41,966 nucleotides of DNA from Phycisphaerae bacterium (GCA_050050135.1 JASFUW010000001.1:1-41966), one strand, 5' to 3'. Shown: positions 1 through 36,771, numbered from the stretch's first letter. Program-made: numbers and translations. The notes: generated from the letters alone by a model not told the origin.

Positions 1-1381
1 CACCGAGATCGTCCAGCGCGGCGCTGAACGGAATCAGCCCCGTCACGCCCTGGTACGGTTCCACGCGATGGGCGAGCACGTCACGGATCTTCGCCCGATT
101 CAGACCGGCCGTCCGGATCGCCCAGATCAGCATGTTCATGCCGTCGTACGCATGGGCCGAGTACGTGTCCGGCTCGACCCCGAACCGCTCGCGAAACGCC
201 GATTGAAACGCCATGTAATCCTCGTCCATCCTCGTCGGATCCCACGGAAAACCGCAGATCACCCCCTCCGCGTTGCTTCCCGCAATTTCCACGAACTCGT
301 CCGAGACGCAACGGTCGCAACAGAAAAACGGCTGCTTCATTCCCATCGCCCGCATCTGGTTCAGGATGCGGGCCCCGTCTTCGGCATCGCCCCAGTGTAC
401 GACGGCGTCCAGCTTGCTCGCGTTAAGTCGTTCGAGTTGAAGCGTAAAGTCGTCTCCCCCCACCCGGTACGCCATTTCCAGAACGATCGGGCGCTTGAGC
501 CGCCGACTCGTGTCCCTGACCTCGCGAACCCCGAATCGCCCGTACCGGTTCGACGCCCGCATGATCCCCACCCGCCGGTAGTCCATCTTCCGATAGATGT
601 AGTCCGTCAACAGATAACCCATCTGGCGATCATCGCCGATGCACCTGAGCACCCAGGGGATGTTGGTCTCGATGAATGTCGGATCCGTGTCACCACTGTT
701 CATCATCACGATTTCGGCTTTGAGTGCGACGCGGATGGCAATATGGCTGTTGGCTCCGTCGATCGTCCCCAGAATCGCCCAGACCCCGTCCCTGTACGCC
801 ATCTTGATGATCTCGTTCCCCGACGCGCCCCACAACCCGTTGTCGTTCGAAACCACCAGTTCGAACGGAATGTTTCGCTCGCGGTAGCCGCCCTCCGCGT
901 TCGCCTGCTCGATCGCCAGCCTCGCCCCGCGAAGCATCGAGATGCCCAACACCTCCTCGTGGCTCTTCCCACCCGTCGCGACCGACACCGTCGCCATGAT
1001 CGGACCGATGAACCCGATCTTCACCGCCTCCAGGTGCTCCGGCTCCGCAATCGCCCGACCGGGACCGGTGTACTCCATCTGCTCCAGAAAATGCTCCTTG
1101 AACGGCCTGACGTGCCGGAACGGCTCGACGTCCATCGCGGAACCCGCGTAGTTATGGTCCTTCCTAAGTTCGAGTTGCGGTATCTCATATGGACCGACGT
1201 CGATCGCGTCGAGCAGCGCATCGAGATCCTCACTCGCCTCCCCTCTTTGCCGCCTTGTGCCCTCGGCCTCCGGCTTACCGCTCACCGGCTCGTTTCCTTC
1301 GGAAACCGCGAGCCCCCCGAACCCACAACACGACACGATCACGCCCGCAAAAACCCTCACGACGATCTTCCTCGACAGCAT
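1..1381 (-). CDS. Periplasmic substrate-binding protein, Leu/Ile/Val-binding type (LivK / Peripla_BP_6-like); 3' end lies beyond the window
   Basis: Absent from the ORF track because its stop is left of position 1. My reverse-complement translation from ATG (1381..1379) reads MLSRKIVVRVFAGVIVSCCGFGGLAVSEGNEPVSGKPEAE... (signal peptide). It continues ...KIGFIGPIMATVSVATGGKSHEEVLGISMLRGARLAIEQANAEGG... and stays open to ...PYQGVTGLIPFSAALDDLG at position 1. The long + ORF 68..1621 is an R/P/H-rich shadow of this gene. Confidence 0.8.
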   Translation of the reverse strand, partial: MLSRKIVVRVFAGVIVSCCGFGGLAVSEGNEPVSGKPEAEGTRRQRGEASEDLDALLDAIDVGPYEIPQLELRKDHNYAGSAMDVEPFRHVRPFKEHFLEQMEYTGPGRAIAEPEHLEAVKIGFIGPIMATVSVATGGKSHEEVLGISMLRGARLAIEQANAEGGYRERNIPFELVVSNDNGLWGASGNEIIKMAYRDGVWAILGTIDGANSHIAIRVALKAEIVMMNSGDTDPTFIETNIPWVLRCIGDDRQMGYLLTDYIYRKMDYRRVGIMRASNRYGRFGVREVRDTSRRLKRPIVLEMAYRVGGDDFTLQLERLNASKLDAVVHWGDAEDGARILNQMRAMGMKQPFFCCDRCVSDEFVEIAGSNAEGVICGFPWDPTRMDEDYMAFQSAFRERFGVEPDTYSAHAYDGMNMLIWAIRTAGLNRAKIRDVLAHRVEPYQGVTGLIPFSAALDDLG

Positions 1382-1439
1382 GGTGTTACCCCTTGTCCTC
1401 AGACGCTTGATCCGCATACCGGATCCTCGGTCCCTTCGC

Positions 1440-2690
1440 CTACTTCGTCTGCGCTACGGACGAACGCAGACCCGGATAATACCCCTCCCCGATGGCGCGC
1501 CCCAGTCCTTTGGACGTGCCCACCCACACATCAGTCCCGTCGAAGTCTGCCCAAAGCACGTAGTTGTGCGGAAGGTTGGGTCCGGTATCCACCTCGGCCA
1601 ATACCTCCGTCCCCCTCTTAATCACCGCCTTTCCCGTGTGCGCCTTTCCGTCACCGGTATAGACCACCCAGGTATCGGTCGGAAAGTCGGCCAGAACGCC
1701 GAGCCCCTTATCCGTACAGAACCACGCCTCGTTCGCACTTCGCCCCGCAATCGCGTTGTTGAAGTCGCTAGGAAGTCCACTGTCATGGGCAAAGTACCCG
1801 CGCCAGTGTCTTCCGTCATACCGACTGGCACCGAAATACGTCGTCACCCACAGGACCTTCTCCACGTAACTCACACCCGTCGTGATCACATGCACGATCC
1901 CGTCGTCCCGATAGAGATCAATCTCCATTTCCCCATCCGGATCGAGATAGTCTTTCCACGTACCTCTCTCGACGTCGTATTCCAAAACCCCACTACCCCA
2001 GACGCCCAGATACACCAGACCGTCGGCATACGTACAACTGTAATTCCAGATCTCCTCCATCGGCGCGTTCTTTTCGGTGAATATGCTCCATTCCCCCGTC
2101 ACCGTGTTGTATCGACTGGCACCCGCGGTGGTCGCTGCCCAGATGTTGTCATGCTCGACCGCAACCCCATACACCACGTCATTGACAAGACCGCTGTTCA
2201 ACTGATGCCAGTGATCGAACCGCCCTCCGCTGAACCGGGCCAGTCCGCCCCCGAACATCCCCAACCACACCTCTCCCGTCTTCGGGTCGACATCAATGGC
2301 CCCCACCACCCGCCACGGCAGACCGTCCTCCTCGCCCCAACTCTTGACCTCGTCGGTCCGCTTGTCCAGACGCGCTAGACCGTTCTCGGTCCCGATCCAG
2401 ACGAACGGCCCATCCACCTTCACCGCGAACACGTGATCGTTGGGCAGCCCGTCCGCAGTCGTGTACTGCTTCCAGTGCGTGTAGACGTACGGCAGTCCGT
2501 CGGAGTGATCGTGCGCTTCTTCCGACTCGCTCCCCCGTCCGGTCGCTTGCCCGACCGCATCACGTGGCAACCCGTCGTCCTGAACCGACTGTCGTTGGGT
2601 CGCGAGACATCCCACCAGAGCAATGCAAAGGGCAGGCCACAGGAGGTGTCTTAGCTGTCCTACGTTCATTGTTCCGCCCCGTATTATCAT
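1440..2690 (-). CDS. Secreted/lipoprotein beta-propeller with two-component-regulator-propeller (Reg_prop)-type repeats
   Basis: 416-aa ORF with a lipobox-like LCIALVGC. Repeated units: VDGPFVWIGTENGLARLD, GEVWLGMFGGGLARF, DNIWAATTAGASRY, DVWVGTSKGLGRA. The ATG at 2690 overlaps the upstream stop (ATGA). An alternative start is M8 at 2669. Confidence 0.7.
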   Translation of the reverse strand: MIIRGGTMNVGQLRHLLWPALCIALVGCLATQRQSVQDDGLPRDAVGQATGRGSESEEAHDHSDGLPYVYTHWKQYTTADGLPNDHVFAVKVDGPFVWIGTENGLARLDKRTDEVKSWGEEDGLPWRVVGAIDVDPKTGEVWLGMFGGGLARFSGGRFDHWHQLNSGLVNDVVYGVAVEHDNIWAATTAGASRYNTVTGEWSIFTEKNAPMEEIWNYSCTYADGLVYLGVWGSGVLEYDVERGTWKDYLDPDGEMEIDLYRDDGIVHVITTGVSYVEKVLWVTTYFGASRYDGRHWRGYFAHDSGLPSDFNNAIAGRSANEAWFCTDKGLGVLADFPTDTWVVYTGDGKAHTGKAVIKRGTEVLAEVDTGPNLPHNYVLWADFDGTDVWVGTSKGLGRAIGEGYYPGLRSSVAQTK

Positions 2691-5617
2691 AGTGTCTTCA
2701 GATACTCGATCAAGTCATTCAACTGGTCTTTCGTCATATCGTTCGTCACCCCGTGCCGGTCGTACGGGTTGAAGCGCGTCCAGATTTCCTCCAACGTGTC
2801 CGAGATTCCGTTATGCAGATAGGGTGAAGAATCATAGATGTTATTCAGATGCGGAACGTCAAACTCCACCTCTCGGTCCAGCCACATCTTCGTCCCCACG
2901 TCGCGCCGCGTCCGATCCGTAAACAGCGGCGGAAAGTGGCAAGTAACACACCTGTCCTCCACGGGAATGACACGACCGTCATTCGCCAACGTCCGTTGGA
3001 ACACCGCTTTCCCGCGCCGTTGCGCCGGCGTCAGCTCCCCACCGACCTCTCGATACCGATTCGGCGGCCGCGGAATCGTGCAAATGTAGTTGTCAAGTGC
3101 CGAAAGCTCTTCCGGCGTGAACGGATCGATACGCGTAAAGAACACAGCCAGCCGCGGCCCGCACTGTCTCTGCAAGCTCGGATTCGTCCCCTCCCACTTG
3201 AACGGCGCCGTGTCCAGGATTCCACGCAGCGTCCGGTTGTCGACCGGACTGCTCCCGATCCCGTCCGGCTCGATGTCATACGTCAGCCCGTCCACGTGTC
3301 CGTCGGGATGGCAGGAGTGACACGAGAACTGTCGGCGGAAGGTGATGTCCGCGCTGTGAAAGAGCTGCTCACCATACCGGACTTTCGTAATCTCCTTCGG
3401 CCCTCCCAGATCAATCCGACCGTCCGCGACCATCTTCTCCACGTCTATGACCGTGATGGAGTCATCCAGGGCGTTGGCCACGTAAGCCGTTCGACCGTCC
3501 CTCGAAAACAAAATCCCCCGCGGACTCGCCTCCGTCGCAATGTGCTTGACCACGAACCCCGTCGGCTTCCCCACGTGGTTCGGAATAACGTGCTCCCGCT
3601 CGTATTGCGACGCCTCTTCGAGCATCGACACCAGCTTCTCGACATCAACGACAGCCACACGATCAGAACCGCTGCTGGTCACCAGCGCATAACGCCCGTC
3701 CGGGCTGATCGCCACGTCCGCCGGATCCGGGAAACACAGGTGCGGTTCGTCGAGCAGCACCTGGTCCACCCGCCCGTCGCTCCCAATCACCCCCAGACCG
3801 TTCGTGATCGTCCAGCCCTGCAACAGACGTGTCATGGGCACCAGGTTCTTGGTTCGGTTCAGCGTCGTCAGCGCGAACGCCCCGCTCGGATGCCACGCGA
3901 CGCCCTGCATCAGGTTGGCCCCATTCACCTCAAAGCGCTCTTCGACCACACGCCGCTCAGTGTCAACGACTGTCACTTCGGAGACCGACGGCTCACGAAA
4001 CTCGACAAACCGCGAGAGGTTGTTGGTCACAACGAGTTGCCGTCCGTCCGGGCTCAAACTCAGCGACCAGGGACTGCGGCTCGCCGACAGCCGCTTGATC
4101 TCTTCAAAGGATCCCGCATCGAGCACCGAGATGCTGTCAGACGCCGTGTTGAGCACGTAAAGCACTTTGCCCGACCGGTCCGTCAGCACCCCGTGCGGCT
4201 CATCGCCGACCGGAACGATCTTCGCAACGGTCCACGTGCTCGTATCGACCACCGCCAGCGTGTCGTCCAGCCGATTCGTGACGTACGCCCGCGCGCCATC
4301 CGGACTCAGCGTCACATCGGTCGGTTGACCGCCCGTCGCGACCTCCGCCTTCACCTTCCGCGAAGCGAGGTCGACCACGATCAACGTGTCGGACGCTTCG
4401 CACGTCACGTACAGCGTCGCCCCGTCCGGCGAAAGCGCCAGGTTCAGCGGCGTTTTGTATCTCAGTGCCTGCGTCTGGTCGGTCACCACCGAGGGATGCG
4501 CAATCGCCTTGACTGCCGCCTCGTAGTTAAACTCCCGACCGTGTGCCTTCGCATGACACGTCAAACAGGTTTGCTTCGTCACCGTCGCCAGACCCGCCTG
4601 CCGGGCGGCCCGGGGATCCCGCATGATCGCCTCCGGCCAATATTCGCTGCCAGCGCCGTGGCACGACTCGCACTGGACTCCGTCCATCGGATCGAAGCCC
4701 TCCATGAACTGGTCCGCCGCCTCACCGCCCCCCGTCGTGTGGCATCGAAGACACTCGGGATTCGTCTGCGGATCGCCGGCGTGTCCTTCCTTCCTGGCGA
4801 TTTCCCCCGCCGCCTCGGTGCCCAACACCCCAAACGCCCGCGCGTGCTTACTCATCCGCCACCGGCTGAACTGATAGCCGTAATCCGGTCCCTTATGGCA
4901 CGCCGCACACGCCATCACCCCCGTATACTTCGCGCTTGGCGCCGCAGGCTGATCACCACCTTCGTTCCCTCGCGCACGCACGGACCCCTCGGATACTGGC
5001 GCCGAAACGGTCGTCTTGTTGCACACCCCACCACAGATCGTCTTGAGCTCCTTCTCGATGTCGATCTGCGGCGACTTCAGAACCGCCACGTGCGAGCCCT
5101 TCACGTTATGGCAGGTCATGCACGATCGCGCGTCAGGCATCTTCATCCCGTGCGCCATCGCCTTTTGCCGGTCCATCATCACTTCCGGATCGATGTACTC
5201 ACTGCCGGCACCATGACACGTCTCACACTGAATCCCGTCCTCGAGAAAAAACCTCTCTTCCTTCTCCCAATCCTCCGCGCCATACGCGGTCACGTGACAC
5301 CCCAGGCACGCCGCCGCCTCTTGCGGCTCGTCCGGGATACCGCTCAACTTCGCGATTTGCTTCGCTTCTTCACTCCAGAGTGACGCGTATGCCAGGGCAT
5401 GCTCCGACACCCGCCATTGGCTGTACGTCCGCATGCGGCTATACATCTGCGCCGGGTTAGGCCCCGCGTGACACTCCGCGCAAACCTGAACACCCACATA
5501 AACGGGATGCCGATCCGACACACCCGGACCCGACGCGACCGCATAGCCCGCGCACAACACCAACACCATCACGGCGCTTTCGCGCCATCGCTCGACTATC
5601 CGTTTTCCGCGCATCAC
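2687..5617 (-). CDS. Decahaem c-type cytochrome fusion: 2x tetrahaem (cytochrome c554-like) modules + YVTN-type beta-propeller + C-terminal dihaem cytochrome-c-peroxidase/MauG-like domain
   Basis: 976-aa ORF with ten CxxCH motifs. The Cys residues are at 46, 104, 131, 166 and 237, 289, 316, 351 (two internally repeated modules, each with QCE(T/S)CHGAGSEY), and at 766 and 890. Residues about 385-760 carry repeated LSPDG..(L/A)YV(T/A)N...(S/T)(I/L)xV(V/I)D units. N-terminal signal anchor. Confidence 0.8.
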   Translation of the reverse strand: MMRGKRIVERWRESAVMVLVLCAGYAVASGPGVSDRHPVYVGVQVCAECHAGPNPAQMYSRMRTYSQWRVSEHALAYASLWSEEAKQIAKLSGIPDEPQEAAACLGCHVTAYGAEDWEKEERFFLEDGIQCETCHGAGSEYIDPEVMMDRQKAMAHGMKMPDARSCMTCHNVKGSHVAVLKSPQIDIEKELKTICGGVCNKTTVSAPVSEGSVRARGNEGGDQPAAPSAKYTGVMACAACHKGPDYGYQFSRWRMSKHARAFGVLGTEAAGEIARKEGHAGDPQTNPECLRCHTTGGGEAADQFMEGFDPMDGVQCESCHGAGSEYWPEAIMRDPRAARQAGLATVTKQTCLTCHAKAHGREFNYEAAVKAIAHPSVVTDQTQALRYKTPLNLALSPDGATLYVTCEASDTLIVVDLASRKVKAEVATGGQPTDVTLSPDGARAYVTNRLDDTLAVVDTSTWTVAKIVPVGDEPHGVLTDRSGKVLYVLNTASDSISVLDAGSFEEIKRLSASRSPWSLSLSPDGRQLVVTNNLSRFVEFREPSVSEVTVVDTERRVVEERFEVNGANLMQGVAWHPSGAFALTTLNRTKNLVPMTRLLQGWTITNGLGVIGSDGRVDQVLLDEPHLCFPDPADVAISPDGRYALVTSSGSDRVAVVDVEKLVSMLEEASQYEREHVIPNHVGKPTGFVVKHIATEASPRGILFSRDGRTAYVANALDDSITVIDVEKMVADGRIDLGGPKEITKVRYGEQLFHSADITFRRQFSCHSCHPDGHVDGLTYDIEPDGIGSSPVDNRTLRGILDTAPFKWEGTNPSLQRQCGPRLAVFFTRIDPFTPEELSALDNYICTIPRPPNRYREVGGELTPAQRRGKAVFQRTLANDGRVIPVEDRCVTCHFPPLFTDRTRRDVGTKMWLDREVEFDVPHLNNIYDSSPYLHNGISDTLEEIWTRFNPYDRHGVTNDMTKDQLNDLIEYLKTL

Positions 5618-7248
5618 TCAGCCCCCTGCACAACCGTAAGAAGCTGATTCGCCCGAACGTCTTCCAACACCGTCTTCTTACCGTCGGGCCACCGAACCTC
5701 CACCGCGTCCACCTTCGTCGCACGACCGAGCCCGAAGTGGGCACGCGGGTCGCTCTGCGAGAGGTAACCCGTCACACCCGAAACCTCGTGTACCATCCGC
5801 GTCCCCCCAACCGTCACGGTCACACGTGAACCAATGGCGATCACTTTCGTCCCCGCACGCAGCGGCGCCACCATGAGCCACTGGTTCTGACTACCTCCCT
5901 CGTTGCGCAGCAACTTCGCCCGATCGTTCAAATTCATGACCATCAGATCGAGGTCGCCGTCATTGTCGTAGTCGGCATACGCCGAGCCCCGACCCACGAA
6001 CTTCTCTTGAAAATACGCCCCCGATCGCTTCGCGACGTCGATGAACTTCACCGATCCCCCGGACCCGCTGTTCCGCAACAACGAATCCTCCTCCGTATAC
6101 TCGTGGTGTGCATTCCCATTCGCCACGAAAACGTCGAGGTGACCGTCGTTGTCATAGTCGAACAGCAACCCCCCCCATCCCGTGTACTGCCCGCACGAAA
6201 CCGCCAGATTACTCGGCGCCGTGATATCCGTAAACCACTTTCCCTCATTCACAAACAGACAACCATACCCCATGTCTGGAATGTACAGGTCCAACAAGCC
6301 GTCACGATTCACGTCGCCCACCGCCGGTCCCATCGACGACGCACCCTGACCGCCCTCCCCGAACGCCACGCCCCACTCCAACGCCTTGTTCTCGAACTTC
6401 CCATTGCCCACGTTTACGAAGTAGCAGTTGGGCGACGCGTCGTTCGTCACGTAGAGATCGATCCGTCCGTCGCCGTTCAAGTCGGTAGCCACCGCGCTCA
6501 TCGCCCGTCCGTCGGGAAAGTGGAGCCCCGTCTCTTCGGTGACGTCGCTGAAGGTGCCGTCGCCATTGTTGCGATACAGTCGATCGGCCTGCGCCTTGTA
6601 GCTAAGCGGCCCCGGATAACCGGCCGCGGGATAGAAATCGCGAAACTTCCCAGCGTCGTACTCCAGGTAGTTCGCCACATACACATCCAGGTCACCATCG
6701 CCGTCGTAGTCCAACCACGGCGCCGAGACCGTCCAGTGGGCATCGTCCAGTCCCGACCGCTCGGAGACGTTAGTGAAAGTCCCATCGCCCTCGTTGCGAT
6801 ACAGCACATTGGGACCGTAGTTCTGCACATACAGATCCACATCACCGTCGTTGTCGTAGTCCACCGCGGACGCTCCGATCCCGAACCGCTTGTCGCCGAC
6901 GCCCGCCTTCTCGGTCACGTCGGTGAACGTCCCGTCTTTGTTGTTGCGATACAATGCGTTCGACAGCTTGCCGCGCAGATCCCGCCCGAAATTATCACTC
7001 ACCCTTCGCGTCCAACACCCGTTGACCAGATAAATGTCCAAATACCCGTCGTTGTTGTAGTCGAAGAACGCACAACCCGGCCCCGTCCCCTCGACGATAT
7101 TGCTGAGTGTGTGGTCCCCGTAACTGTGCTTGAACTTGATCCCGGCCCGGTCAGTCACGTCGGTGAACACCGGGAGTGTGGGCTCGGCGGCAACGGCCGG
7201 GCACACCATGAGTGGGAAAGCGAAACTAGTGATCGCTGCTCGCATCAT
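5614..7248 (-). CDS. FG-GAP/VCBS-repeat protein with C-terminal ASPIC/UnbV domain (CRTAC1-like)
   Basis: 544-aa ORF with a signal peptide. Seven D-x-(D/N)-x-D-G-x-x-D-(L/I/V)-(Y/F/M)-(V/I) calcium-loop repeats (DYNNDGYLDIYLVNG, DYDNDGDVDLYVQNYG, DYDGDGDLDVYVANY, DLNGDGRIDLYVTND, DVNRDGLLDLYIPDMG, DYDNDGHLDVFVANG, DYDNDGDLDLMVMNLN). C-terminal ...GYLSQSDPRAHFGLGRATKVDAVEVRWPDGK... is typical of UnbV_ASPIC. Confidence 0.8.
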   Translation of the reverse strand: MMRAAITSFAFPLMVCPAVAAEPTLPVFTDVTDRAGIKFKHSYGDHTLSNIVEGTGPGCAFFDYNNDGYLDIYLVNGCWTRRVSDNFGRDLRGKLSNALYRNNKDGTFTDVTEKAGVGDKRFGIGASAVDYDNDGDVDLYVQNYGPNVLYRNEGDGTFTNVSERSGLDDAHWTVSAPWLDYDGDGDLDVYVANYLEYDAGKFRDFYPAAGYPGPLSYKAQADRLYRNNGDGTFSDVTEETGLHFPDGRAMSAVATDLNGDGRIDLYVTNDASPNCYFVNVGNGKFENKALEWGVAFGEGGQGASSMGPAVGDVNRDGLLDLYIPDMGYGCLFVNEGKWFTDITAPSNLAVSCGQYTGWGGLLFDYDNDGHLDVFVANGNAHHEYTEEDSLLRNSGSGGSVKFIDVAKRSGAYFQEKFVGRGSAYADYDNDGDLDLMVMNLNDRAKLLRNEGGSQNQWLMVAPLRAGTKVIAIGSRVTVTVGGTRMVHEVSGVTGYLSQSDPRAHFGLGRATKVDAVEVRWPDGKKTVLEDVRANQLLTVVQGAE

Positions 7249-9320
7249 TCTTCACCATGACTGTTCATATCTGCGGGGCCATCCCCTCGTGGTTCGGGCG
7301 AAGCCGGAATTCCATCCCACTGCGCGCCGAGATCAATCCACTCGATGAAGGCGAGAACCTCCTCGTCCGATAGCGGGTCCCCGCCCGATGGTGGACACCT
7401 TGGGACCTTCCGCCCGTCTCGACCAGATGGCAACGCGTCCCAAGGCCTCGCCGTGACCTGACCAAGGAGCGGCCAGACCAGCGGGCTCTTGCGCGCCGCC
7501 CCCGGTGAGACGATCGGCAGGCCCTGCGATAATACCGAGGGAAATGAGGTCGGGGTCTCATGTGAAGGTGGTCGATGGAACCGGTCGAACACGCGCTCGG
7601 CATCTCCAGCCAATTCCGGCCGTCCGGCCGTCCAGTCCTCGTGACAGGGGAGACAGCGCCCCACGATGGTCGGCATCACGTCCCGACGGAAGTCGACCGT
7701 CCGCCGTTTCTGCGGCGGCAGCGTCAGCTTCATGCCCGGCTTTTTCAGCGCGTCGACGAATCGGTTCTCGGGTGTAAGTTGGGGATCTTCGTGACACCCG
7801 ATGCACCCACGAGGCTCACGATGCTTCACCCATATCCAGCCGCACGTTCTAAGCGCCAAACCATCCGCATCCAGCGTCTGCAACTGAATCGGTGTATCCG
7901 CCGGGACCTCGATATGGAACGAGCCGTCCTTTTCGACCGGGACGACACCGAGGATTCGCTTCTTGACGATCTCCCCGCTGCGACCTAATGGAGTCCGTGG
8001 CCGGGTCGAGGCAGACGCGCGCCCGTCGGCGGGGTATGGCTCCGGCACGCCCTCGATCACCCGCAGACTCTTGATCATTCCGGGCTTCATGTGGGGCAGA
8101 TTGAACGGCTCTGCCAGGTAGGCGTTGAGACAGTAGAGCTTCCCCGTCGGATACTTCTCGTTAACGACACTCGACCGACCGTCCGGCTGTGTGCGTGGTG
8201 CCAGAATCTTGGCATGGAGCTCGTGATGGTCGGGATCGTCGAACACCAGGCCCCGCTCACCGGAACGTGGATCAACCCGGTATAAACCGTGAGAAGAACC
8301 CACCATCCCAAGCCGCGAGGAGACCAGCACGCTCCCGTCAGGCAGCGGTGATGGTGAGTGGTAGAGGTACCGATCGTGACTGATCCGCCTGTGGGAATCG
8401 AAGTGCCGACGGAGCATCACCGAGGCCAAGCTCCCGGCTCCGTCCCACGGCACTTCGCCGGCCTCGACGAACACAACCAAGCCATCGGTCGTCGCCGTCG
8501 GCATATGCTTAATGCGCTTGCCCTGGTCGCCGCAGAACAAGGCGTAGTCGGCGCCGTCGGTGTTGACCCCGAACAGCGAAACGCGCCCCCACGGCCCGCG
8601 TCTAAGGTCCATCCGCTGCCAACTCGCCAAAAGCACGCGCCCGTCGGGCATCAGATAGGGGTCCATGTCGTCGCTGAGATTCATGGTAAGTCGGCGCACG
8701 GCGGTCCCATCGAGCTTGCAGCTATACAGGCTGGTTGCGGGTCCCGAACCGTATTCGTTCATCATACCCGCCGCGTCGCTCACGAACATGACTTGATACC
8801 ACGGCTCGGTCGAGACGATCGTGTACAACGTGGCCTGATACGCCGGGCTCCGGCAGTTCCCGAAGTCGCGCGTGATCTGCCGAGGCTCGGAACCGTCGGC
8901 CCGCATCTCCCAGATGTTCCACCGGTCGCCGCCGTCGCGCTTGGCCGTGAACAGCACCCGCTTCGCGTCGAACGAGACGTCGAACTCGCACGCGCTGTGA
9001 AAACCCTTGGTCAGCACGTGAACCGTGCCGTCCGTCTCCAGCCGCACGATCCGCCCGCCGTCACCGTATCTCGACCGCAGCATGCCTCCCGCCCGCGACG
9101 TCTTTGATTCACTCTCCTGACCGACCGGGAGCTGAACCATCAGCACCGGCGACTCGATCGTCCGTGGCGTGGTGGCGCCTTCGCCGCCCCGCGCGCTCGG
9201 CCCGGCCCGGGTCACGACCGCCAGCCCGACCGCCAGCCCGACCGCCAGCCCGGAACCTGCCAACACGAACCGCCCGATACGTGACCTGCTCATCGCGACC
9301 GTATCCGCCTTCCACCACAC
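7245..9320 (-). CDS. TolB/PD40-like beta-propeller protein with hydrazine-synthase-alpha-like middle region and C-terminal dihaem (2x CxxCH) segment
   Basis: 691-aa ORF with an N-terminal anchor (GLAVGLAVGLAV). PD40-like DGGDRWNIWEMRADGSEPRQIT. The segment VPVEKDGSFHIEVPADTPIQLQTLDADGLALRTCGWIWVKHREPRGCIGCHEDP resembles the HzsA middle/haem region as I recall it. Second haem motif: GRCLPCHEDW. The start may be M10 (9293). Confidence 0.6.
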   Translation of the reverse strand: MWWKADTVAMSRSRIGRFVLAGSGLAVGLAVGLAVVTRAGPSARGGEGATTPRTIESPVLMVQLPVGQESESKTSRAGGMLRSRYGDGGRIVRLETDGTVHVLTKGFHSACEFDVSFDAKRVLFTAKRDGGDRWNIWEMRADGSEPRQITRDFGNCRSPAYQATLYTIVSTEPWYQVMFVSDAAGMMNEYGSGPATSLYSCKLDGTAVRRLTMNLSDDMDPYLMPDGRVLLASWQRMDLRRGPWGRVSLFGVNTDGADYALFCGDQGKRIKHMPTATTDGLVVFVEAGEVPWDGAGSLASVMLRRHFDSHRRISHDRYLYHSPSPLPDGSVLVSSRLGMVGSSHGLYRVDPRSGERGLVFDDPDHHELHAKILAPRTQPDGRSSVVNEKYPTGKLYCLNAYLAEPFNLPHMKPGMIKSLRVIEGVPEPYPADGRASASTRPRTPLGRSGEIVKKRILGVVPVEKDGSFHIEVPADTPIQLQTLDADGLALRTCGWIWVKHREPRGCIGCHEDPQLTPENRFVDALKKPGMKLTLPPQKRRTVDFRRDVMPTIVGRCLPCHEDWTAGRPELAGDAERVFDRFHRPPSHETPTSFPSVLSQGLPIVSPGAARKSPLVWPLLGQVTARPWDALPSGRDGRKVPRCPPSGGDPLSDEEVLAFIEWIDLGAQWDGIPASPEPRGDGPADMNSHGEE

Positions 9321-10003
9321 GGCACGTGGCCTACCTCACCGACTCCGCGGCACGATTCTACCAGACAACAGAATCATAAGACAAGCTACAAACCAACAAC
9401 GCCAGCTCATTCACAACCGCGCCTCCGCAGTTCGAACCGCGCCTGTAAGAAAGCGGCCTAGGGATCATGAACCGCACACCCACCGCACGCGGAAGGCCGC
9501 CAAAAACCCGTCCGGCTGTATCTATCGGTTCGGCATACCGCCCTCGTTTTCGTTCCGGCTCAAAACAGATGCAACCGCTTCCTGTGCAGATTCGCGCGGC
9601 CGTCTCGCGCACGGCGCAAACAACATATGGCACGGGCCCCACGACGGGTGCCACGGGTCCGCGAAGCCGGCCCCGTGGGCATCCTCTTCCCCGAGGGTTC
9701 CCAAACCCGCAGAACGCAAGCCCGACGTCCGTCTGGAGAATCGCAAGACTGAAGTGCAAACCACGCTGGCTTCCGCGCACCGGCCCTCCGACACCCCGAA
9801 CGCAGCAAACGCAGCACAACGGACGCGTAAGACTCAACCGTCCCCCGGTCTCCGGCATGCCGCGGTCCCCCGTCCCCCCATGTCCCTTCGTCCCCGTGTG
9901 GCTTCCCGTTCTTCTTCATCTTTCGTCCTTCATCCTTCCGCACCCCGGAGCATTGATCACCAATCCGCCACATTCCCCGTCCTCCGCTCCCTGTTCCCTC
10001 TCT

Positions 10004-12931
10004 TCAAACCGTCTGCATCGCATCGATAATGTTGTTCCGCGCAGCCCGCCGCGCGGGCCCGATCCCCGCCAGCAGGCAGACCCCCACCGTGATCAACACG
10101 CTGATTGCGACCGTCCCCATCGGCACGATGAACTCGAACGTGATATCCGCGATCCTCGAACTGATCTGCTGGTCGCTGTACGCAGTATGGAATCCTAGTG
10201 CTACACCCATGACACTTCCGAGCGCCCCCAGTGTAACGGCCTCGGTGAGCACCAGCCGCACGATCTGCGATTTCACCGCCCCCACCGCCCGCAGCATCGC
10301 GATCTGCCGCGACCGCATGTGCACGCTCACCATCATCAGATTCGCGATCCCTACGGCAGCCACCACCAGCAAAACCGACGGCAACCACGTAATCGCCCCG
10401 ATCGCCCGCCGAAGCGCGACATCGAGCGATCGCCGAAGCCGCGAGACCGACCCCACAATGGCGTCCGGGTTCCCCGTGATCTGGGCGACCTTCAGCAGGA
10501 CGAGCCACTCACGGAACGTATACCAGTTCTCTTCACGTCCCCGACGTTCCGTCGACGATGACCACGCCAGCTTCCGAATCGCCTGCGCAAACCGTTCGAG
10601 TTCCGACCGGGCCGCATCCGGCAGGACCGCCTCCCGACCGCTCCCTCGCCACGCCGCAAGCTCTGTCAGGATCGCCCCCAGCCGCTCCTGCTCAGACGGC
10701 AGGTAGGGCGACCACGCCAACAGCGCATCCGCCACCGCCTCCTCGTCGCCGAAGTCGGGAAGGTGCTGTGGGTCGAAGTCCGGCGGCAATTCAGTTTCCG
10801 GCAAATCGAGGTCGAACAGAAACATCGAGACGATATCCAGCCCGAACTTCTCCTTCAGGTCTGAAGCCGTACCGAGAAGGGCGCTGGCGGCCGCGAACTG
10901 CATGTAGCTCTCCGCCTGAAACGCCGACACCGCCATATCCATCGCCGGCGATTCCACGACCCCCGCCACCTCGAACCGCGCCGACTTCCCCCCCACGTTC
11001 ACCATGATCTCGTCACCCAGATGAAGGTCCTTGCTCCTTCCCGTCTGTCGTGGAATCAAAACCGCCCCGCCCCGCTCCAGCTTCTCCATCGCCTCGTCAA
11101 ACGAACCCTCCACGAACGTCACCTTCACCATCTCGAGCACCCGCTTGGGATCACCCGCGACAAACACGGGGCGGGTAAGCCTCTTTACCAACGACTCGAC
11201 GATCGACGACGACGACGCGCCTTCGGCATCCGCCTTCTCGATCCGACAATCCGCATCGACCAGCGTGCTGCACTCCCCCACACCCGGCGCCCTTTGCACG
11301 CGCTCCACGACCTCCCCCGACACATACTTCGGCGTCCACACGAACGCTTCGGGCAGTCGCGCCGGAAAATCCCAGATCGCCAGAACGCTCTTGGCCTGAA
11401 CCGCGAGATAGACGATCAGCGAGAGTCCGACCATCAGAACCCAGCACGCCCCCGTACTGCGCCAGGGCGAACGCACCAGCGGTTCTTCCGCCAACCGCGC
11501 TCGAAGCCCGAGCAGCCGGCCGAACACCCGCGCCGCCGGCCGCCCGAAAGCCACCACCAACACCGGCGTCACCAACGTGTACCCGAGATAAAGCGACCCC
11601 ACGCCCACAAAGACAAACACCGGCTCAACCCAGCGATACGGATCGGAGAAGACCGCCATCCCGTGATGAATCAACAACAGACTCACCCCCACCGCTCCGG
11701 AAAAAAAAACGAGCGCCATCCGGGCCGGTCGAGCCTGCGGCGCGAGCGCCTCCAACGGCGTCACGCGCCCGACTTGAAGTGTCAACAAAGCAGCACTGAG
11801 CAGCGTCGTGACGACCCCGCTGATCGCGGCCAGCGCCATCCCCCACCGATCATAGTGAACCTCGATCATCAGTTCCGGCGAAAACGAGGCAATAATCTCG
11901 GTCAACACCACGCCCCCGAGCAGCCCGAACACCGTCCCCACCACACCCAGCGGAACCAACTCGAAGAACAGCAGGGCGGTCACCTGACCACGGGTCGCGC
12001 CGAGACACCGCATCGTGCCGAGCTGCGGGCGCCGCTGCGCCAGCCCGATCGCCTGAGTGGTCACGATGATGAAAAACGACGTGAGCATCGCCACGAACGC
12101 CACGATCCCCAGGATCAATCTCATGATCCGGTCCGCTTCATCCAGCGCGATCTGCCGACTCGCAGCCGTCTCAATCCGGTATGAATACGGCGGCGTATTC
12201 CGAGCCAGGGACCGTTCAATCGCTTCCTTCGCCGCCGCCAGCGCATCGAGCGACGCGTCGGCCAGCATCACGTCGATCGCCGTCACCGCGCCCGGCTCTT
12301 TCCTCAGCGCTTGCAGGTCCGACAGAGGAACATAGACCCGCGGCGCTTGAAAGTCCGCCAGCCGCTGACTCGCGAACAGCCCGATGACACGCAGTGTCAT
12401 TCGCGGACCTTCGCGTCGCGTCGCCAGCGACACCGTATCGCCGAGCCCGATGCCCCACGCGACGGCCGTCTCCCGCTCCATGACCGCCGCCCCCGTTTCG
12501 GAGGGTTTCAACATCTCCCCCTCGAGCGCGGGAAGAGACTGGAATGGTTCTTCGGTTGTGGGATCGATCCCGATCGCATCCACCCACCGCCAGCGGCGCG
12601 TCACCAGATCCTCTGTCTCCCCCTCCCTACAGAGTCTTACCCGTCGGTGCAGCCGCGCGGTGACGTGGATCACGTTCTCGATCTCGGCGAGTCCACGCGC
12701 CATCGACGCGTCGAGCCGCCCCCAATGCGCACCCAGCGGATGGATCGTTACGTGCGCAGACCCCAACCAGCGGTAGACAACCTCATCGAGAATCGCGTCG
12801 TGCGAGGTCTTGTAGCAGTTGGCGATCGTCGCCACCGCCCCCACGCCGAGGGCCACCGAGAGACCCGCCGCCAGACATCGACCCGGGTTAGCCCACCAGC
12901 TCCCGATAGCGAGACGCCACAAACGCCGCAT
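10004..12931 (-). CDS. ABC transporter permease, fused double FtsX/MacB-type
   Basis: Track ORF 10004..12973. The likely start is MRRLWRLAIGSWWANPGR (ATG 12931..12929), typical of MacB/FtsX N-termini. Two TM bundles are separated by large extracytoplasmic regions. The C-terminal FtsX block is ...MRSRQIAMLRAVGAVKSQIVRLVLTEAVTLGALGSVMGVALG.... Confidence 0.75.
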   Translation of the reverse strand: MRRLWRLAIGSWWANPGRCLAAGLSVALGVGAVATIANCYKTSHDAILDEVVYRWLGSAHVTIHPLGAHWGRLDASMARGLAEIENVIHVTARLHRRVRLCREGETEDLVTRRWRWVDAIGIDPTTEEPFQSLPALEGEMLKPSETGAAVMERETAVAWGIGLGDTVSLATRREGPRMTLRVIGLFASQRLADFQAPRVYVPLSDLQALRKEPGAVTAIDVMLADASLDALAAAKEAIERSLARNTPPYSYRIETAASRQIALDEADRIMRLILGIVAFVAMLTSFFIIVTTQAIGLAQRRPQLGTMRCLGATRGQVTALLFFELVPLGVVGTVFGLLGGVVLTEIIASFSPELMIEVHYDRWGMALAAISGVVTTLLSAALLTLQVGRVTPLEALAPQARPARMALVFFSGAVGVSLLLIHHGMAVFSDPYRWVEPVFVFVGVGSLYLGYTLVTPVLVVAFGRPAARVFGRLLGLRARLAEEPLVRSPWRSTGACWVLMVGLSLIVYLAVQAKSVLAIWDFPARLPEAFVWTPKYVSGEVVERVQRAPGVGECSTLVDADCRIEKADAEGASSSSIVESLVKRLTRPVFVAGDPKRVLEMVKVTFVEGSFDEAMEKLERGGAVLIPRQTGRSKDLHLGDEIMVNVGGKSARFEVAGVVESPAMDMAVSAFQAESYMQFAAASALLGTASDLKEKFGLDIVSMFLFDLDLPETELPPDFDPQHLPDFGDEEAVADALLAWSPYLPSEQERLGAILTELAAWRGSGREAVLPDAARSELERFAQAIRKLAWSSSTERRGREENWYTFREWLVLLKVAQITGNPDAIVGSVSRLRRSLDVALRRAIGAITWLPSVLLVVAAVGIANLMMVSVHMRSRQIAMLRAVGAVKSQIVRLVLTEAVTLGALGSVMGVALGFHTAYSDQQISSRIADITFEFIVPMGTVAISVLITVGVCLLAGIGPARRAARNNIIDAMQTV

Positions 12932-13676
12932 CGTGATCTCCGCCCGGACCGATCTCGCCGGCCAACCCACCATCTCTCAAAACGAGCACCCGATCCGCGT
13001 GGCTCGCCGCGTCAGCCTCGTGGGTCACCGCGACAACCGTTCGCCCCCCATCGCGCGCCAACGACGACAACAACCCCCAGATCGCCGCACCGTGTTTGCT
13101 GTCCAGGTTTCCCGTCGGCTCATCCGCGAGCAAGAGCACCGGGTCGTTCATCAACGCACGGGCGATCGCCACCCGTTGCTGCTCTCCGCCCGAGAGCGCC
13201 TGTGGTCGGTGCTTCGCACGGTGCGAGAGGTTGACCTCTTCCAACAACCGTCCCGCCCGCGCGTCCATCTGCTCCGCCTCGCCGTTCTCCAACAGCGCCG
13301 GCAACGCCACGTTCTCGACGGCTGACAGCGTAGGAAGGAGGTTATAAGCCTGGAACACGATCCCCAGCCGGCGTCTGCGAAAGAGCGTCCGCTCTCGGTC
13401 GCTCATGTCGTGCAGGTCCTGGCCACCCACACAGATGGACCCCATGCTCGGAACGTCGAGCCCGCCGATCAGATGCAACAGCGTGCTCTTGCCGGAACCG
13501 CTCGCCCCCATGATGGCGACGAATTCCCCCTCGTGAACATCGAAAGACACACCCCGGAGGGCATCCACCGGTTGACCATCGCTGAGGTAGGTCTTGGACA
13601 GGTCACAGACGGTAAGAACCGGGGAGACGGCTCGAGGGCTTGCTTCGTTCGCGCCGACTGCCGAGGGCTCATCCAT
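12888..13676 (-). CDS. ABC transporter ATP-binding protein (MacB/LolD-type)
   Basis: Walker A GASGSGKSTLL, signature LSGGEQQRVAIARAL, Walker B LLLADEPTGNLD, H-loop VTHE. Confidence 0.9.
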   Translation of the reverse strand: MDEPSAVGANEASPRAVSPVLTVCDLSKTYLSDGQPVDALRGVSFDVHEGEFVAIMGASGSGKSTLLHLIGGLDVPSMGSICVGGQDLHDMSDRERTLFRRRRLGIVFQAYNLLPTLSAVENVALPALLENGEAEQMDARAGRLLEEVNLSHRAKHRPQALSGGEQQRVAIARALMNDPVLLLADEPTGNLDSKHGAAIWGLLSSLARDGGRTVVAVTHEADAASHADRVLVLRDGGLAGEIGPGGDHDAAFVASRYRELVG

Positions 13677-20569: not shown

Positions 20570-20596
20570 GAGATGTCCTCCACTGCAGGTACCGCG

Positions 20597-25080: not shown

Positions 25081-25086
25081 GCCTGG

Positions 25087-26886: not shown

Positions 26887-26946
26887 GCCGATCAGTATAG
26901 TGCTGCACAGGGTGCCCCTCAAACGGGACGCCGAAGGGAACGACCG

Positions 26947-33879: not shown

Positions 33880-34089
33880 CTTGGACGTGAGTTATCGGCA
33901 TCGCACAACCCGCCCGCAATCGCCCGTCCAGCGGGTTGGAAGAGCCAACCCCGGTCCGATCGCACCACGCGCGCGCCCGCCTTTTTTGGACGAGTGGACC
34001 AGTTTCGATCCCGATATCACGACAGGGATTACATCGGTCGCCGGGTCCCGCCCGGTGACTGCGCTACAGGATTGGTCCGCGCCAAGGAA

Positions 34090-34872: not shown

Positions 34873-34874
34873 TC

Positions 34875-36686: not shown

Positions 36687-36771
36687 CGCATGTGCGGGCT
36701 CGGGATGAGCGGGGCGTACGATCACGCCGCGATCGGCGGATGCGTACTGAGTGACCGACAGGAGGCACCGT

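What the first reader, a model, noticed from the sequence alone, without database searches (positions are those of the whole stretch)
1..9320. Five-gene, translationally coupled operon for a secreted haem/propeller module of unknown function
Five consecutive minus-strand genes all carry signal peptides or membrane anchors. Three junctions have overlapping stop/start codons: ATGA at 7245-7248 and at 2687-2690, and GTGATG over TGA at 5612-5617. This argues for coupled translation. The gene set is an HzsA-like propeller with 2 haems, an FG-GAP/ASPIC-UnbV protein, a decahaem/YVTN/peroxidase-like fusion, a Reg_prop propeller, and a LivK-like binding protein. No ABC permease or ATPase is visible on this side. 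Twelve CxxCH sites in total imply an extracytoplasmic electron-transfer or small-molecule redox function. I know of no characterised pathway with this gene set.
Basis: partly seen in the sequence, partly recalled or inferred. Interest (0 to 1): 0.6.

Follow-up and report, generated by a model that had tools for sequence, protein, structure and literature searches.

The report
Hydrazine-synthase-like multihaem gene cluster
This is a real, strongly conserved operon for an exported 12-haem enzyme complex distantly related to the anammox enzyme hydrazine synthase; the cluster type was already described in 2023-2025, almost certainly does not make hydrazine, and its true reaction is still unknown.

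Summary
Five co-directional genes (7245-9320, 5614-7248, 2687-5617, 1440-2690, 2-1417, minus strand) are tightly packed, and all have N-terminal export signals. They carry 12 CxxCH sites (2 + 10).

Gene 1 is a full-length HzsA homologue. Gene 3 is an octahaem (2x c554) extension fused to HzsB + HzsC homologues. Together they are a complete hydrazine synthase (HZS) homologue.

The gene set matches the "clade I HZS homologue cluster" of Hagglund et al. 2025 (PMC12758564). All of that paper's residue features are reproduced here. The HZS-specific catalytic residues are missing, and the third haem-linking Cys of the gamma subunit is kept.

Order g1-g2-g3-g4-g5 plus a second binding protein is kept in 41 of 43 loci from Planctomycetota and Acidobacteriota. 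The window is a whole contig of a Phycisphaerales-like MAG, so the sixth gene is cut off.

New here:
- The Reg_prop propeller and the binding proteins are the most conserved parts.
- They are recurrently fused to each other.
- They never sit beside ABC membrane genes, so they are probably fixed subunits.

The function is unknown. My best guess is reduction of a small N-oxide. This scan has met the same cluster type in at least five other genomes. Verdict: new member of a known, uncharacterised kind.

The parts
9355..9384 (-). Candidate sigma-70-type promoter (TTGTCT-18 nt-TAGAAT, with TG extension), 35 nt upstream of the g1 GTG start
   Evidence: Consensus scan. The position is right, but the number of such sites is not above shuffles. 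Inference only.
7245..9320 (-). g1: HzsA-like alpha subunit (691 aa). Signal peptide or anchor, N-terminal beta-propeller, HZS_alpha middle domain with haem alphaI site C506IGCH, and a C-terminal domain with haem alphaII site C556LPCH
   Evidence: Pfam HZS_alpha 84 bits. NCBIfam hydrazine_alpha 198 bits against a cut-off of 800. PDB 5C2V_A E 7e-41 in three stretches. 27% identity over 739 columns to an anammox HzsA. Residue alignment.
5614..7248 (-). g2: exported FG-GAP (7 repeats) + UnbV/ASPIC protein (544 aa), CRTAC1-family type
   Evidence: Pfam FG-GAP_3 179 bits in 7 stretches and UnbV_ASPIC 90 bits. It lies between the alpha and beta-gamma genes in every related locus.
2687..5617 (-). g3: decahaem fusion (976 aa). 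Signal peptide, two tetrahaem c554-like modules (res ~36-360), an HzsB-like 7-bladed YVTN propeller (res ~389-727) and an HzsC-like dihaem domain (res ~740-976, haems at C766 and C890)
   Evidence: NCBIfam hydrazine_BC 209 bits against a cut-off of 1250, hydrazine_beta 162, hydrazine_gamma 90. PDB 5C2V_B 3e-41, 5C2V_C 6e-21, c554 1BVB 2e-7. AF2 propeller against 5C2V_B: TM 0.91, rmsd 2.8 A. Residue alignment.
1440..2690 (-). g4: exported (lipobox LVGC) single Reg_prop-type beta-propeller (416 aa). Nearly invariant loop at 253-267 (GEMEIDLYRDDGIVH)
   Evidence: PDB 4A2L (BT4663 sensor) E 9e-22. AF2 pLDDT 83, pTM 0.80. Foldseek best hit 4A2L, TMq 0.61. Median 71% identity across loci.
2..1417 (-). 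g5: exported (lipobox-like IVSC) Peripla_BP_6 / LivJ-fold binding protein with a conserved ~100-aa N-terminal extension. The 3' end is cut by the contig end (about 43 residues missing)
   Evidence: Pfam Peripla_BP_6 125 bits. NCBIfam LivJ/K subfamily 79 bits against a cut-off of 477. PDB amino-acid binding proteins, e.g. 4GNR 4e-23. Truncation shown against orthologues. LivJ ligand positions only partly kept.

Best explanation
The region is one copy of the 'clade I hydrazine-synthase (HZS) homologue' gene cluster, in a Phycisphaerales-like planctomycete.

It encodes an exported c-type cytochrome complex built like HZS:
- an alpha subunit (g1, 2 haems);
- a beta-gamma fusion (g3) that carries an extra eight-haem c554-like wire;
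- a CRTAC1-like FG-GAP propeller (g2);
- a ligand-binding or scaffold module made of a Reg_prop propeller (g4) and two LivJ-fold binding proteins (g5 and a sixth gene lost at the contig end).
The binding proteins work as fixed subunits, not as ABC-transport shuttles.

It is not a hydrazine synthase. The alpha active site has lost the Tyr ligand and Zn site that define HZS. The gamma site has Trp and Leu where HZS has His144 and Asp168.

Inferred mechanism (about 0.3 confidence for this part):
- Electrons enter through the octahaem wire to haem gammaII.
- They reach the Cys-crosslinked catalytic haem gammaI, which reduces a small N-oxide (NO to hydroxylamine).
- The product passes to the now canonical His-ligated alpha haem. 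There it is reduced further (to ammonium) instead of being condensed with ammonia.
This would be an ancestral-type multi-electron NO/hydroxylamine reductase or detoxifier.
For: SHOWN
- Full-length homology of g1 and g3 to all three HZS subunits. Predicted propeller TM 0.91 to 5C2V_B.
- The gamma domain is far closer to HzsC (77 bits) than to any peroxidase (20 bits).
- All clade-I features of PMC12758564 are reproduced in my own alignments:
  - alpha gene upstream, FG-GAP gene in between, beta-gamma fused, 8 extra CxxCH;
  - both alpha CxxCH present;
  - deletion at alphaSer590/Tyr591;
  - alphaCys303 and alphaHis772 absent;
  - beta-loop Glu absent;
  - PFKWEG (Trp) at gammaHis144;
  - Cys kept at gammaCys165, invariant as C819 in 37 orthologues.
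- Six-gene order kept in 41 of 43 loci from two phyla.
- g4 and g5 are the most conserved genes (median 71% and 70% identity, against 50% for g1).
- Fusions:
  - g4+g5, g5+g6 and g4+g5+g6 in L048, L083 and L084;
  - g4-like+SBP in the genome's own second cluster;
  - nine of nine sampled 740-1068-aa relatives of g4 are fused to Peripla_BP_6.
- No ABC permease or ATPase follows the binding proteins in L001, L002, L004 or L095.
- The own genome has no HAO/HDH-family octahaem gene apart from g3 itself. It has an aa3-type oxidase.

INFERRED
- Complex formation, direction of electron flow and the substrate.
Against: - No biochemical, transcript or proteomic data exist for any member.
- The Trp at the gammaHis144 position is the CCP/MauG state, so peroxide or protein-oxidising chemistry is not excluded.
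- gammaAsp168, implicated in the gammaI axial site of HZS (PMC12607021), is Leu here. NO chemistry at gammaI may therefore differ from HZS.
- N-oxide reduction does not explain why two binding proteins, a Reg_prop propeller and a CRTAC1-like propeller are so strictly conserved.
- No nitrosative-stress regulator site or N-cycle gene is linked to the cluster.
- The gamma domain of my AF2 model is low confidence (pLDDT 35-60), so nothing structural can be said about the active site.
Confidence: 0.78

Rival explanations
1. It is a genuine, divergent hydrazine synthase, and the organism is an unrecognised anammox bacterium. This was hypothesised for Phycisphaerae UBA1845 (PMC10732223) and for ten phyla in cold seeps (PMC11828985).
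For: All three HZS subunits have homologues in one cluster. gammaCys165 and all four core haem sites are kept. Two published studies read such genes this way.
Against: - Scores are far below the NCBIfam equivalog cut-offs: 198 against 800, and 209 against 1250.
- alphaTyr591/Ser590 are deleted. alphaCys303, alphaHis772, gammaHis144, gammaAsp168 and the beta-loop Glu are all absent.
- No HAO/HDH-family gene was found in the genome (the genome is 84% complete).
- An aa3-type oxidase is present.
- A long branch separates all such proteins from anammox HzsA.
- PMC12758564 reaches the same rejection.
Confidence: 0.04
2. It is a peroxidase or MauG-type system. The gamma domain uses its CCP/MauG-like dihaem pair, with the bridging Trp. 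It either reduces H2O2 with electrons from the octahaem wire (like the trihaem quinol peroxidase YhjA), or it oxidatively modifies a partner protein such as the propeller or a binding protein.
For: - Trp replaces gammaHis144, as in CCP/MauG (PMC12758564).
- Weak CCP_MauG and RoxA-like Pfam hits.
- The organism is probably aerobic.
- The partner proteins are strictly conserved and fused, as expected if one is a substrate or scaffold.
Against: - CCP_MauG scores 23.8, below its cut-off of 25.6.
- The best peroxidase structure hit is only 20 bits, against 77 bits for HzsC.
- The HZS-specific third thioether Cys is invariant, and CCP/MauG lack it (the CCP/MauG side is my background knowledge).
- A peroxidase would not need a two-haem HzsA-like subunit.
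Confidence: 0.12
3. It is an amine or amino-acid redox or N-N bond-forming enzyme. The LivJ-fold proteins capture an amino compound. That compound is oxidised, or is condensed with haem-generated hydroxylamine, at the alpha haem.
For: - g5 keeps Thr102, Tyr150 and an acidic residue at 226 of the LivJ ligand site.
- The binding proteins are integral to the cluster and lack a transporter.
- A RidA-like (imine deaminase family) gene lies directly upstream in 8 of 40 loci.
- HZS itself condenses hydroxylamine with an amine nitrogen.
Against: - LivJ positions Ser79, Tyr202 and Tyr18 are replaced in g5. Nearly all are lost in the second binding protein.
- The HZS condensation site (Tyr-ligated alphaI) is exactly what is missing.
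- The RidA link is confined to acidobacterial loci.
Confidence: 0.08
4. It is an extracytoplasmic electron conduit for mineral or humic redox (iron or manganese). The 12 haems act as a wire and the propellers as surface-binding modules.
For: - 12 haems, with MtrC/MtrF-like and c7/c3-like weak Pfam hits in the c554 region.
- Many carriers are sediment or soil Planctomycetota and Acidobacteriota.
- PMC10732223 notes metal-cycling genes in related MAGs.
Against: - No porin or outer-membrane partner gene is conserved next to the cluster.
- The catalytic-type, crosslinked gamma haem and the HZS architecture point to small-molecule catalysis, not simple wiring.
Confidence: 0.05

Closest known systems
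Clade I homologues of the hydrazine synthase complex (Hagglund et al. 2025, Genome Biol Evol, PMC12758564)
   Same: - Gene order: alpha, FG-GAP/CRTAC1, fused beta-gamma, then binding-protein genes.
- Eight extra N-terminal haems in two c554 domains.
- Both alpha haem motifs present.
- The same set of lost residues (alphaTyr591/Ser590, alphaCys303, alphaHis772, beta-loop Glu, gammaHis144 to Trp) and kept residue (gammaCys165).
   Different: - This copy is from a Phycisphaerales-like MAG. The paper's clade I examples are Aquisphaera, Thermogutta, Novipirellula, Syntrophobacter and Paludibaculum.
- In the sections I read, the paper does not mention the Reg_prop propeller gene. It calls the binding proteins 'ABC transporter substrate-binding proteins'.
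- Here the propeller and binding proteins are shown to be the most conserved parts and to be recurrently fused.
Anammox hydrazine synthase HzsABC (Kuenenia stuttgartiensis, PDB 5C2V; NCBIfam NF052339/40/41/42)
   Same: - Three-domain alpha subunit with two haems.
- Seven-bladed beta propeller with the blade-6 loop insertion.
- Dihaem gamma subunit with the third Cys-haem link.
- Beta-gamma fusion, as in Scalindua.
- 27-31% identity over full length.
   Different: - Gene order is reversed (alpha first), with an FG-GAP gene inserted.
- Eight extra haems.
- A large deletion after the alphaI CxxCH removes Tyr591.
- No Zn-site Cys303 and no alphaHis772. Trp for gammaHis144, Leu for gammaAsp168, no beta-loop Glu.
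- Scores are a quarter or less of the family cut-offs.
- No HDH found in the genome.
hzs-like genes of Phycisphaerae UBA1845 MAGs (Dalcin Martins et al. 2023, PMC10732223) and 'new HzsA clades' of cold seeps (PMC11828985)
   Same: Same protein families. GCA_020344555.1, cited in the 2023 paper, is my locus L001/L016, and it carries the identical six-gene cluster.
   Different: Those papers read the genes as potential new anammox. The residue evidence here, and in PMC12758564, argues against that.
Bacterial dihaem cytochrome c peroxidase / MauG family
   Same: Dihaem fold of the gamma domain. Trp at the position between the haems. C-terminal PYxHxG-type motif.
   Different: - Below the Pfam cut-off.
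- An extra thioether Cys.
- Fused to a propeller and an octahaem wire.
- Paired with an HzsA-like subunit.
LivJ/LivK branched-chain amino-acid binding proteins of E. coli
   Same: Peripla_BP_6 fold. Thr102, Tyr150 and an acidic 226 are kept in g5.
   Different: - No livHMGF partners.
- A ~100-aa conserved N-terminal extension.
- Ser79, Tyr18 and Tyr202 are replaced.
- Often fused to a propeller.
- 79 bits against a cut-off of 477.
Periplasmic sensor propellers of Bacteroides hybrid two-component systems (BT4663, PDB 4A2L)
   Same: Reg_prop beta-propeller fold of g4.
   Different: One propeller only. No Y_Y_Y, kinase or receiver domains. It is a secreted or lipid-anchored stand-alone protein.

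Membership tests
Clade I HZS-homologue gene cluster (PMC12758564) | Alpha-subunit gene upstream of a fused beta-gamma gene, with an FG-GAP/CRTAC1 gene between them | tested here: met
   g1 7245-9320, g2 5614-7248, g3 2687-5617, all on the minus strand.
Clade I HZS-homologue gene cluster (PMC12758564) | Eight additional N-terminal CxxCH motifs in two c554 domains on the beta-gamma protein | tested here: met
   CxxCH at 46, 104, 131, 166, 237, 289, 316 and 351. Pfam Cytochrome_C554 has 2 stretches.
Clade I HZS-homologue gene cluster (PMC12758564) | Both alpha haem motifs present. Gap at alphaSer590/Tyr591. alphaCys303 and alphaHis772 not conserved | tested here: met
   Alignment with two anammox HzsA sequences: CIGCH followed by a deletion, CLPCH present, no His at position 772, Asp at position 303.
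Clade I HZS-homologue gene cluster (PMC12758564) | gammaCys165 kept. Trp at gammaHis144. Beta-loop Glu not conserved | tested here: met
   LQRQC819G, PFKW808EG and the TRLLQGWTITNG loop.
Clade I HZS-homologue gene cluster (PMC12758564) | Two substrate-binding-protein genes downstream | tested here: inconclusive
   One (g5) is present and is cut by the contig end. The second was not found anywhere in the 84%-complete assembly. It is present in 41 of 43 related loci.
Hydrazine synthase proper (NCBIfam NF052339 alpha, NF052342 beta-gamma; Dietl et al. 2015) | Score above the curated equivalog cut-off | tested here: not met
   198 against 800 bits, and 209 against 1250 bits. True anammox genes score 1518-1606 bits.
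Hydrazine synthase proper | Tyr591-ligated haem alphaI with Zn site (His587/Cys303) | tested here: not met
   The Tyr591 region is deleted and Cys303 is not aligned. The residue roles are taken from PMC12758564 and PMC12607021.
Hydrazine synthase proper | gammaHis144 and gammaAsp168 at the haem gammaI site | tested here: not met
   Trp and Leu at these positions.
Hydrazine synthase proper | Accompanying hydrazine dehydrogenase (HAO-family octahaem) in the genome | tested here: inconclusive
   PF13447 hits only g3 itself in the own genome. But the assembly is 83.7% complete.
Dihaem cytochrome c peroxidase / MauG (Pfam PF03150) | Family score above the gathering threshold | tested here: not met
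   23.8 against 25.6 bits.
Dihaem cytochrome c peroxidase / MauG (Pfam PF03150) | Trp between the two haems | tested here: met
   W808 aligns with gammaHis144. PMC12758564 equates that position with the CCP/MauG Trp.
LivJ/K-type ABC transporter binding protein | Adjacent permease and ATPase genes (livHMGF type) | tested here: not met
   None in L001, L002, L004 or L095. The window's own ABC pair (10004-13676) is the MacB/FtsX exporter type and is not conserved near the cluster.
LivJ/K-type ABC transporter binding protein | Amino-acid ligand positions (LivJ Tyr18, Ser79, Ala100, Thr102, Tyr150, Tyr202, Glu226; their roles are from my memory of the LivJ/LivK structures) | tested here: inconclusive
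   g5 has Leu, Gly, Gly, Thr, Tyr, Asp, Asp at these positions. The second binding protein keeps only Thr102.
Hybrid two-component sensor (Reg_prop + Y_Y_Y + kinase) | Signalling domains after the propeller | tested here: not met
   g4 is 416 aa and is a single propeller with no further domains.

The most novel reading that the evidence does not exclude
The cluster encodes a previously uncharacterised nitrogen-cycle enzyme of ordinary aerobic heterotrophs. It would be an HZS-ancestor-like complex that reduces NO via enzyme-bound hydroxylamine. The fused propeller/binding-protein 'antenna' would feed it an amino compound, so that it either forms ammonium or makes an N-N bonded product outside anammox bacteria.
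Probability: 0.1. Interest if true: 0.8.

Novelty: new member of a known kind. Interest (0 to 1): 0.38.

Why it matters
Hydrazine synthase was long thought to have no relatives. These clusters are its closest known kin, and they occur in hundreds of species of soil and sediment Planctomycetota and Acidobacteriota.

The literature currently disagrees about them. Two studies count such genes as hidden anammox potential, which changes nitrogen-loss budgets. One study rejects that reading.

This window adds another independent case in which the residue evidence rejects hydrazine synthesis. It also sharpens the open question by showing that the propeller and the 'transport' binding proteins are integral, fused and transporter-less parts of the machine.

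Finding the real reaction would show what HZS evolved from. It could also reveal a new extracytoplasmic nitrogen or peroxide chemistry. As a genome-scan finding, however, it is a rediscovery of a described, uncharacterised cluster type.

Tried and rejected
- Riboswitch or RNA in the 683-nt upstream gap: Rfam found nothing at E <= 1.
- Conserved upstream regulatory motif: k-mer and pattern scans of 70 upstream regions found none. No FNR-, NsrR- or Fur-like sites. Sigma-54 -24/-12 motifs appear only in three acidobacterial loci.
- Rest of the operon in the own assembly: the second binding protein and the g5 C-terminus were not found on any other contig.
- Conserved neighbours beyond the six genes: only a RidA-like gene directly upstream, in 8 of 40 loci, all apparently acidobacterial. 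A PMT-type glycosyltransferase appears in a few loci.
- The upstream MacB/FtsX + ATPase pair (10004-13676) as a partner of the binding protein: rejected. It is an exporter type, lies 683 nt away, and is absent from related loci.
- Lipoprotein status as a conserved feature: a lipobox is common in planctomycete g5. It is not conserved in g4 or in acidobacterial copies.
- CCxxC in g5 (FFCCDRC) as a metal site: rejected, because the Cys residues are not conserved.
- Structural check of the gamma active site: the AF2 gamma domain is low confidence, so only the propeller could be compared.
- Further literature on function in cultured carriers: nothing beyond the three papers.

Full report
OBSERVATION

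The five minus-strand ORFs are at the stated coordinates. I read the junctions directly.
- g1/g2: gaATGAtg at 7245-7248.
- g2/g3: GTGATG over TGA at 5612-5617.
- g3/g4: ctATGAta at 2687-2690.
- g4/g5: a 22-nt spacer.

The first two overlaps hold whichever of the adjacent start codons is used. The third depends on the start choice. An ATG at 2669 preceded by GGGGCGGA is an equally good g4 start and would leave a 17-nt gap.

There are 12 CxxCH motifs, two in g1 and ten in g3. Every product begins with a charged n-region and a hydrophobic 12-mer (Kyte-Doolittle 2.0-2.7). None has a later membrane-like segment. g4 (LVGC) and g5 (IVSC) have lipobox-like motifs.

The window is a complete contig (C1) of a 572-contig, 83.7%-complete MAG. 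g5 is therefore truncated by the contig end, by about 43 residues. Nothing lies 'left of the window' in this assembly.

WHAT THE GENES ARE

g1 (691 aa):
- Pfam HZS_alpha. NCBIfam hydrazine_alpha scores 198 bits, against a cut-off of 800.
- It aligns with the crystal-structure alpha subunit 5C2V_A in three stretches that cover propeller, middle and C-terminal domains (E 7e-41).
- It is 27% identical over 739 columns to an anammox HzsA taken from a genome of the same phylum.

g3 (976 aa) is not a generic fusion:
- After two tetrahaem c554-like modules, residues 389-725 match HzsB (5C2V_B, 3e-41; 30% identity).
- Residues 742-976 match HzsC (5C2V_C, 6e-21; 31% identity).
- NCBIfam's model for the Scalindua-type HzsBC fusion is the best hit (209 bits, cut-off 1250).
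- An AlphaFold model places the propeller on 5C2V_B with TM 0.91 and rmsd 2.8 A. The gamma domain was modelled poorly (pLDDT 35-60).

So g1 + g3 are a complete HZS homologue.

The other genes:
- g2 is a 7-repeat FG-GAP propeller with an UnbV/ASPIC domain.
- g4 is a single Reg_prop propeller. 4A2L scores E 9e-22. The AF2 model has pLDDT 83 and pTM 0.80. Foldseek's best hit is the BT4663 periplasmic sensor.
- g5 is a Peripla_BP_6, LivJ-fold protein.

ALREADY DESCRIBED

Three papers cover this kind of cluster.
- Dalcin Martins et al. 2023 (PMC10732223) reported hzsA-like plus fused hzsBC-like genes in Phycisphaerae UBA1845 and suggested new anammox bacteria. One of their reference genomes, GCA_020344555.1, is my locus L001/L016.
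- A cold-seep study (PMC11828985) counted such HzsA-like proteins as anammox potential in ten phyla.
- Hagglund et al. 2025 (PMC12758564) sorted the homologues into clades I-IV.

Hagglund et al. describe clade I as follows:
- alpha gene first, an FG-GAP/CRTAC1 gene in between, and fused beta-gamma with eight extra haems in two c554 domains;
- two binding-protein genes downstream;
- alphaI and alphaII motifs present;
- a gap at alphaSer590/Tyr591, with alphaCys303 and alphaHis772 not conserved;
- beta-loop Glu not conserved, gammaCys165 kept, and Trp in place of gammaHis144.
They conclude that these are not hydrazine synthases.

MY OWN TESTS OF THOSE FEATURES

I aligned g1 and g3 with orthologues and with HzsA, HzsB and HzsC extracted from two anammox genomes.

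In g1:
- C506IGCH is followed by a large deletion that removes the Tyr591 region.
- Position 303 is Asp.
- C556LPCH (alphaII) is present, but there is no His at position 772.

In g3:
- The blade-6 loop is present but reads TRLLQGWTITNG, without the Glu.
- PFKW808EG replaces PFRH144EG.
- LQRQC819G keeps the third haem-linking Cys, which is invariant in 37 orthologues.
- gammaAsp168 is Leu.
- Both gamma CxxCH motifs and the C-terminal HG motif are kept.

Every clade-I feature is met and every HZS-specific catalytic feature is missing. gammaAsp168 was recently implicated in the gammaI axial site of HZS (PMC12607021).

SYNTENY, SPREAD AND ORIGIN

562 of them encode a g1 relative.
- In the best 80 loci the order is always g1-g2-g3-g4-g5, followed by a second binding protein about 30% identical to g5.
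- Of 43 loci with at least 8.9 kb downstream, 41 have all six genes.
- Carriers are Phycisphaerae, Sedimentisphaerales, Pirellulales, Thermoguttaceae and other Planctomycetota, plus Acidobacteriota (Bryobacterales, Solibacteraceae, Thermoanaerobaculia).
- In an even sample of 400 genomes of the phylum, only four besides the own genome have a close orthologue (E < 1e-100). The distribution is patchy.
- In a tree, g1 is sister to a Phycisphaeraceae MAG (68% identity) inside a Phycisphaerales clade.
- All homologues are separated from anammox HzsA by a long branch.
- Acidobacterial copies form at least two groups, so a few inter-phylum transfers are needed.
- Called-gene junctions in four relatives range from -4 to about +120 nt, and up to 450 nt before the sixth gene. 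Tight packing is conserved. The particular overlaps are not.

THE ACCESSORY PROTEINS

Median identity to the window across loci:

| Gene | Median identity |
|---|---|
| g1 | 50% |
| g3 | 63% |
| g2 | 65% |
| g5 | 70% |
| g4 | 71% |

The 'accessory' propeller and binding protein are under the strongest constraint.

Fusion evidence:
- Single ORFs fuse g4+g5 (L048, 859 aa), g5 plus the second binding protein (L083, 847 aa), and all three (L084, 1332 aa).
- An exhaustive search with g4 gave 735 cluster representatives at E <= 1e-30, many of them 740-830 aa long. All nine that I scanned are propeller + Peripla_BP_6 fusions.

Transport evidence:
- No ABC permease or ATPase follows the binding proteins in four loci examined.
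- The MacB/FtsX + ATPase pair upstream in the window (10004-13676) is an exporter type and is not conserved beside the cluster.

LivJ ligand positions, numbering checked on E. coli livJ:
- g5 keeps Thr102, Tyr150 and an acidic residue at 226. It replaces Tyr18, Ser79 and Tyr202.
- The second binding protein keeps only Thr102.

I conclude that these proteins are fixed subunits or ligand-capturing parts of the complex, not transport shuttles. This goes slightly beyond the published description, which calls them ABC transporter substrate-binding proteins. In the sections I read, that description does not mention the Reg_prop gene.

Two nearly invariant loops are predicted disordered in isolation. 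They are g4 253-267 (GEMEIDLYRDDGIVH) and the g3 blade-6 loop at 590-603. Both are good candidates for interface or tunnel-plug elements.

GENOME CONTEXT

- The own genome has no HAO/HDH-family octahaem gene other than g3, and no NirK.
- It has an aa3-type oxidase and an 800-aa haem-copper family member that may be a qNOR. The assembly is incomplete, so absences are weak evidence.
- A second, reduced cluster lies on contig C112. Its contents are listed under the items noticed in passing.

MECHANISM

Shown:
- an exported, co-inherited six-gene unit;
- an HZS-type alpha/beta-gamma pair with 12 haem sites;
- loss of the HZS condensation site;
- retention of the crosslinked gammaI site;
- integral propeller/binding-protein module.

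Inferred:
- The proteins form one complex.
- The octahaem c554 wire exchanges electrons with a periplasmic or membrane partner.
- gammaI reduces a small N-oxide, and the canonical alpha haem carries out a further redox step instead of comproportionation.
This would be an ancestral-type NO/hydroxylamine reductase. I hold this chemistry at about 0.3.

Rivals:
- peroxidase or MauG-like chemistry (the Trp is the CCP/MauG state), 0.12;
- amine-linked or N-N chemistry that uses the binding proteins, 0.08;
- a mineral electron conduit, 0.05;
- true hydrazine synthesis, 0.04.

WHAT FAILED OR WAS UNAVAILABLE

- Rfam found nothing in the 683-nt upstream gap.
- No conserved upstream motif was found.
- Only a plausible sigma-70-like site at 9384-9355 was found.

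VERDICT

The cluster is a new member of a known but functionally uncharacterised kind. Earlier agents of this scan reached the same identification on at least five other genomes. I reached it independently before looking, and it does not change my scores.

Noticed in passing
own genome contig C112 = L014:2564-8830 (minus strand): A second, reduced HZS-like cluster in the same genome. It has an alpha-like gene without the alphaII domain (539 aa, 7211-8830). It has a beta-gamma-like gene with only one c554 module (796 aa, 6 CxxCH, 4824-7214), which keeps an insertion otherwise seen in anammox HzsC. It has a 752-aa propeller + Peripla_BP_6 fusion (2564-4822). A MarR-family gene (1652-2254) follows. 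No FG-GAP gene lies on the 12.5-kb contig. It does not fit clade I neatly.
   Followed up: partly
window 1440-2690, residues 253-267 of g4; window 2687-5617, residues 590-603 of g3: Two nearly invariant loops (GEMEIDLYRDDGIVH in g4, NLVPMTRLLQGWTI in g3) are the lowest-confidence parts of otherwise confident AlphaFold propellers. This suggests they fold only against a partner.
   Followed up: partly
L048:6888-9467, L083:15228-17771, L084:16260-20258: Natural single-ORF fusions of the propeller and the two binding proteins (859, 847 and 1332 aa). In addition, many 740-830-aa propeller + Peripla_BP_6 proteins appear in the global protein library.
   Followed up: yes
L095:245-724 and 8 of 40 loci, directly upstream of the alpha gene: A RidA/YjgF (Ribonuc_L-PSP) family gene lies immediately upstream on the same strand in acidobacterial copies of the cluster. 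In L095 a PMT-type glycosyltransferase and a third Peripla_BP_6 fragment follow the cluster.
   Followed up: partly
window 9321-10003: A 683-nt gene-free gap between the cluster and the upstream ABC pair. There is no Rfam match. One sigma-70-like site lies at 9384-9355.
   Followed up: partly
window 10004-13676 (minus strand): A MacB/FtsX-type permease (989 aa, two FtsX + MacB_PCD) overlapping an ABC ATPase gene (262 aa). It is an exporter-type pair and is unrelated to the binding protein of the cluster.
   Followed up: no
window 19262-21907 (minus strand): Two tandem paralogous PQQ_2/BamB-like beta-propeller genes (435 and 436 aa).
   Followed up: no
window 22996-27072 (minus strand): Two adjacent large ORFs (694 and 661 aa) with no Pfam match at E <= 0.001.
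   Followed up: no
window ~34000-38000: GC skew is strongly negative from 1 to about 34 kb and turns to about zero or positive after about 36 kb. This probably reflects a change of coding strand.
   Followed up: no
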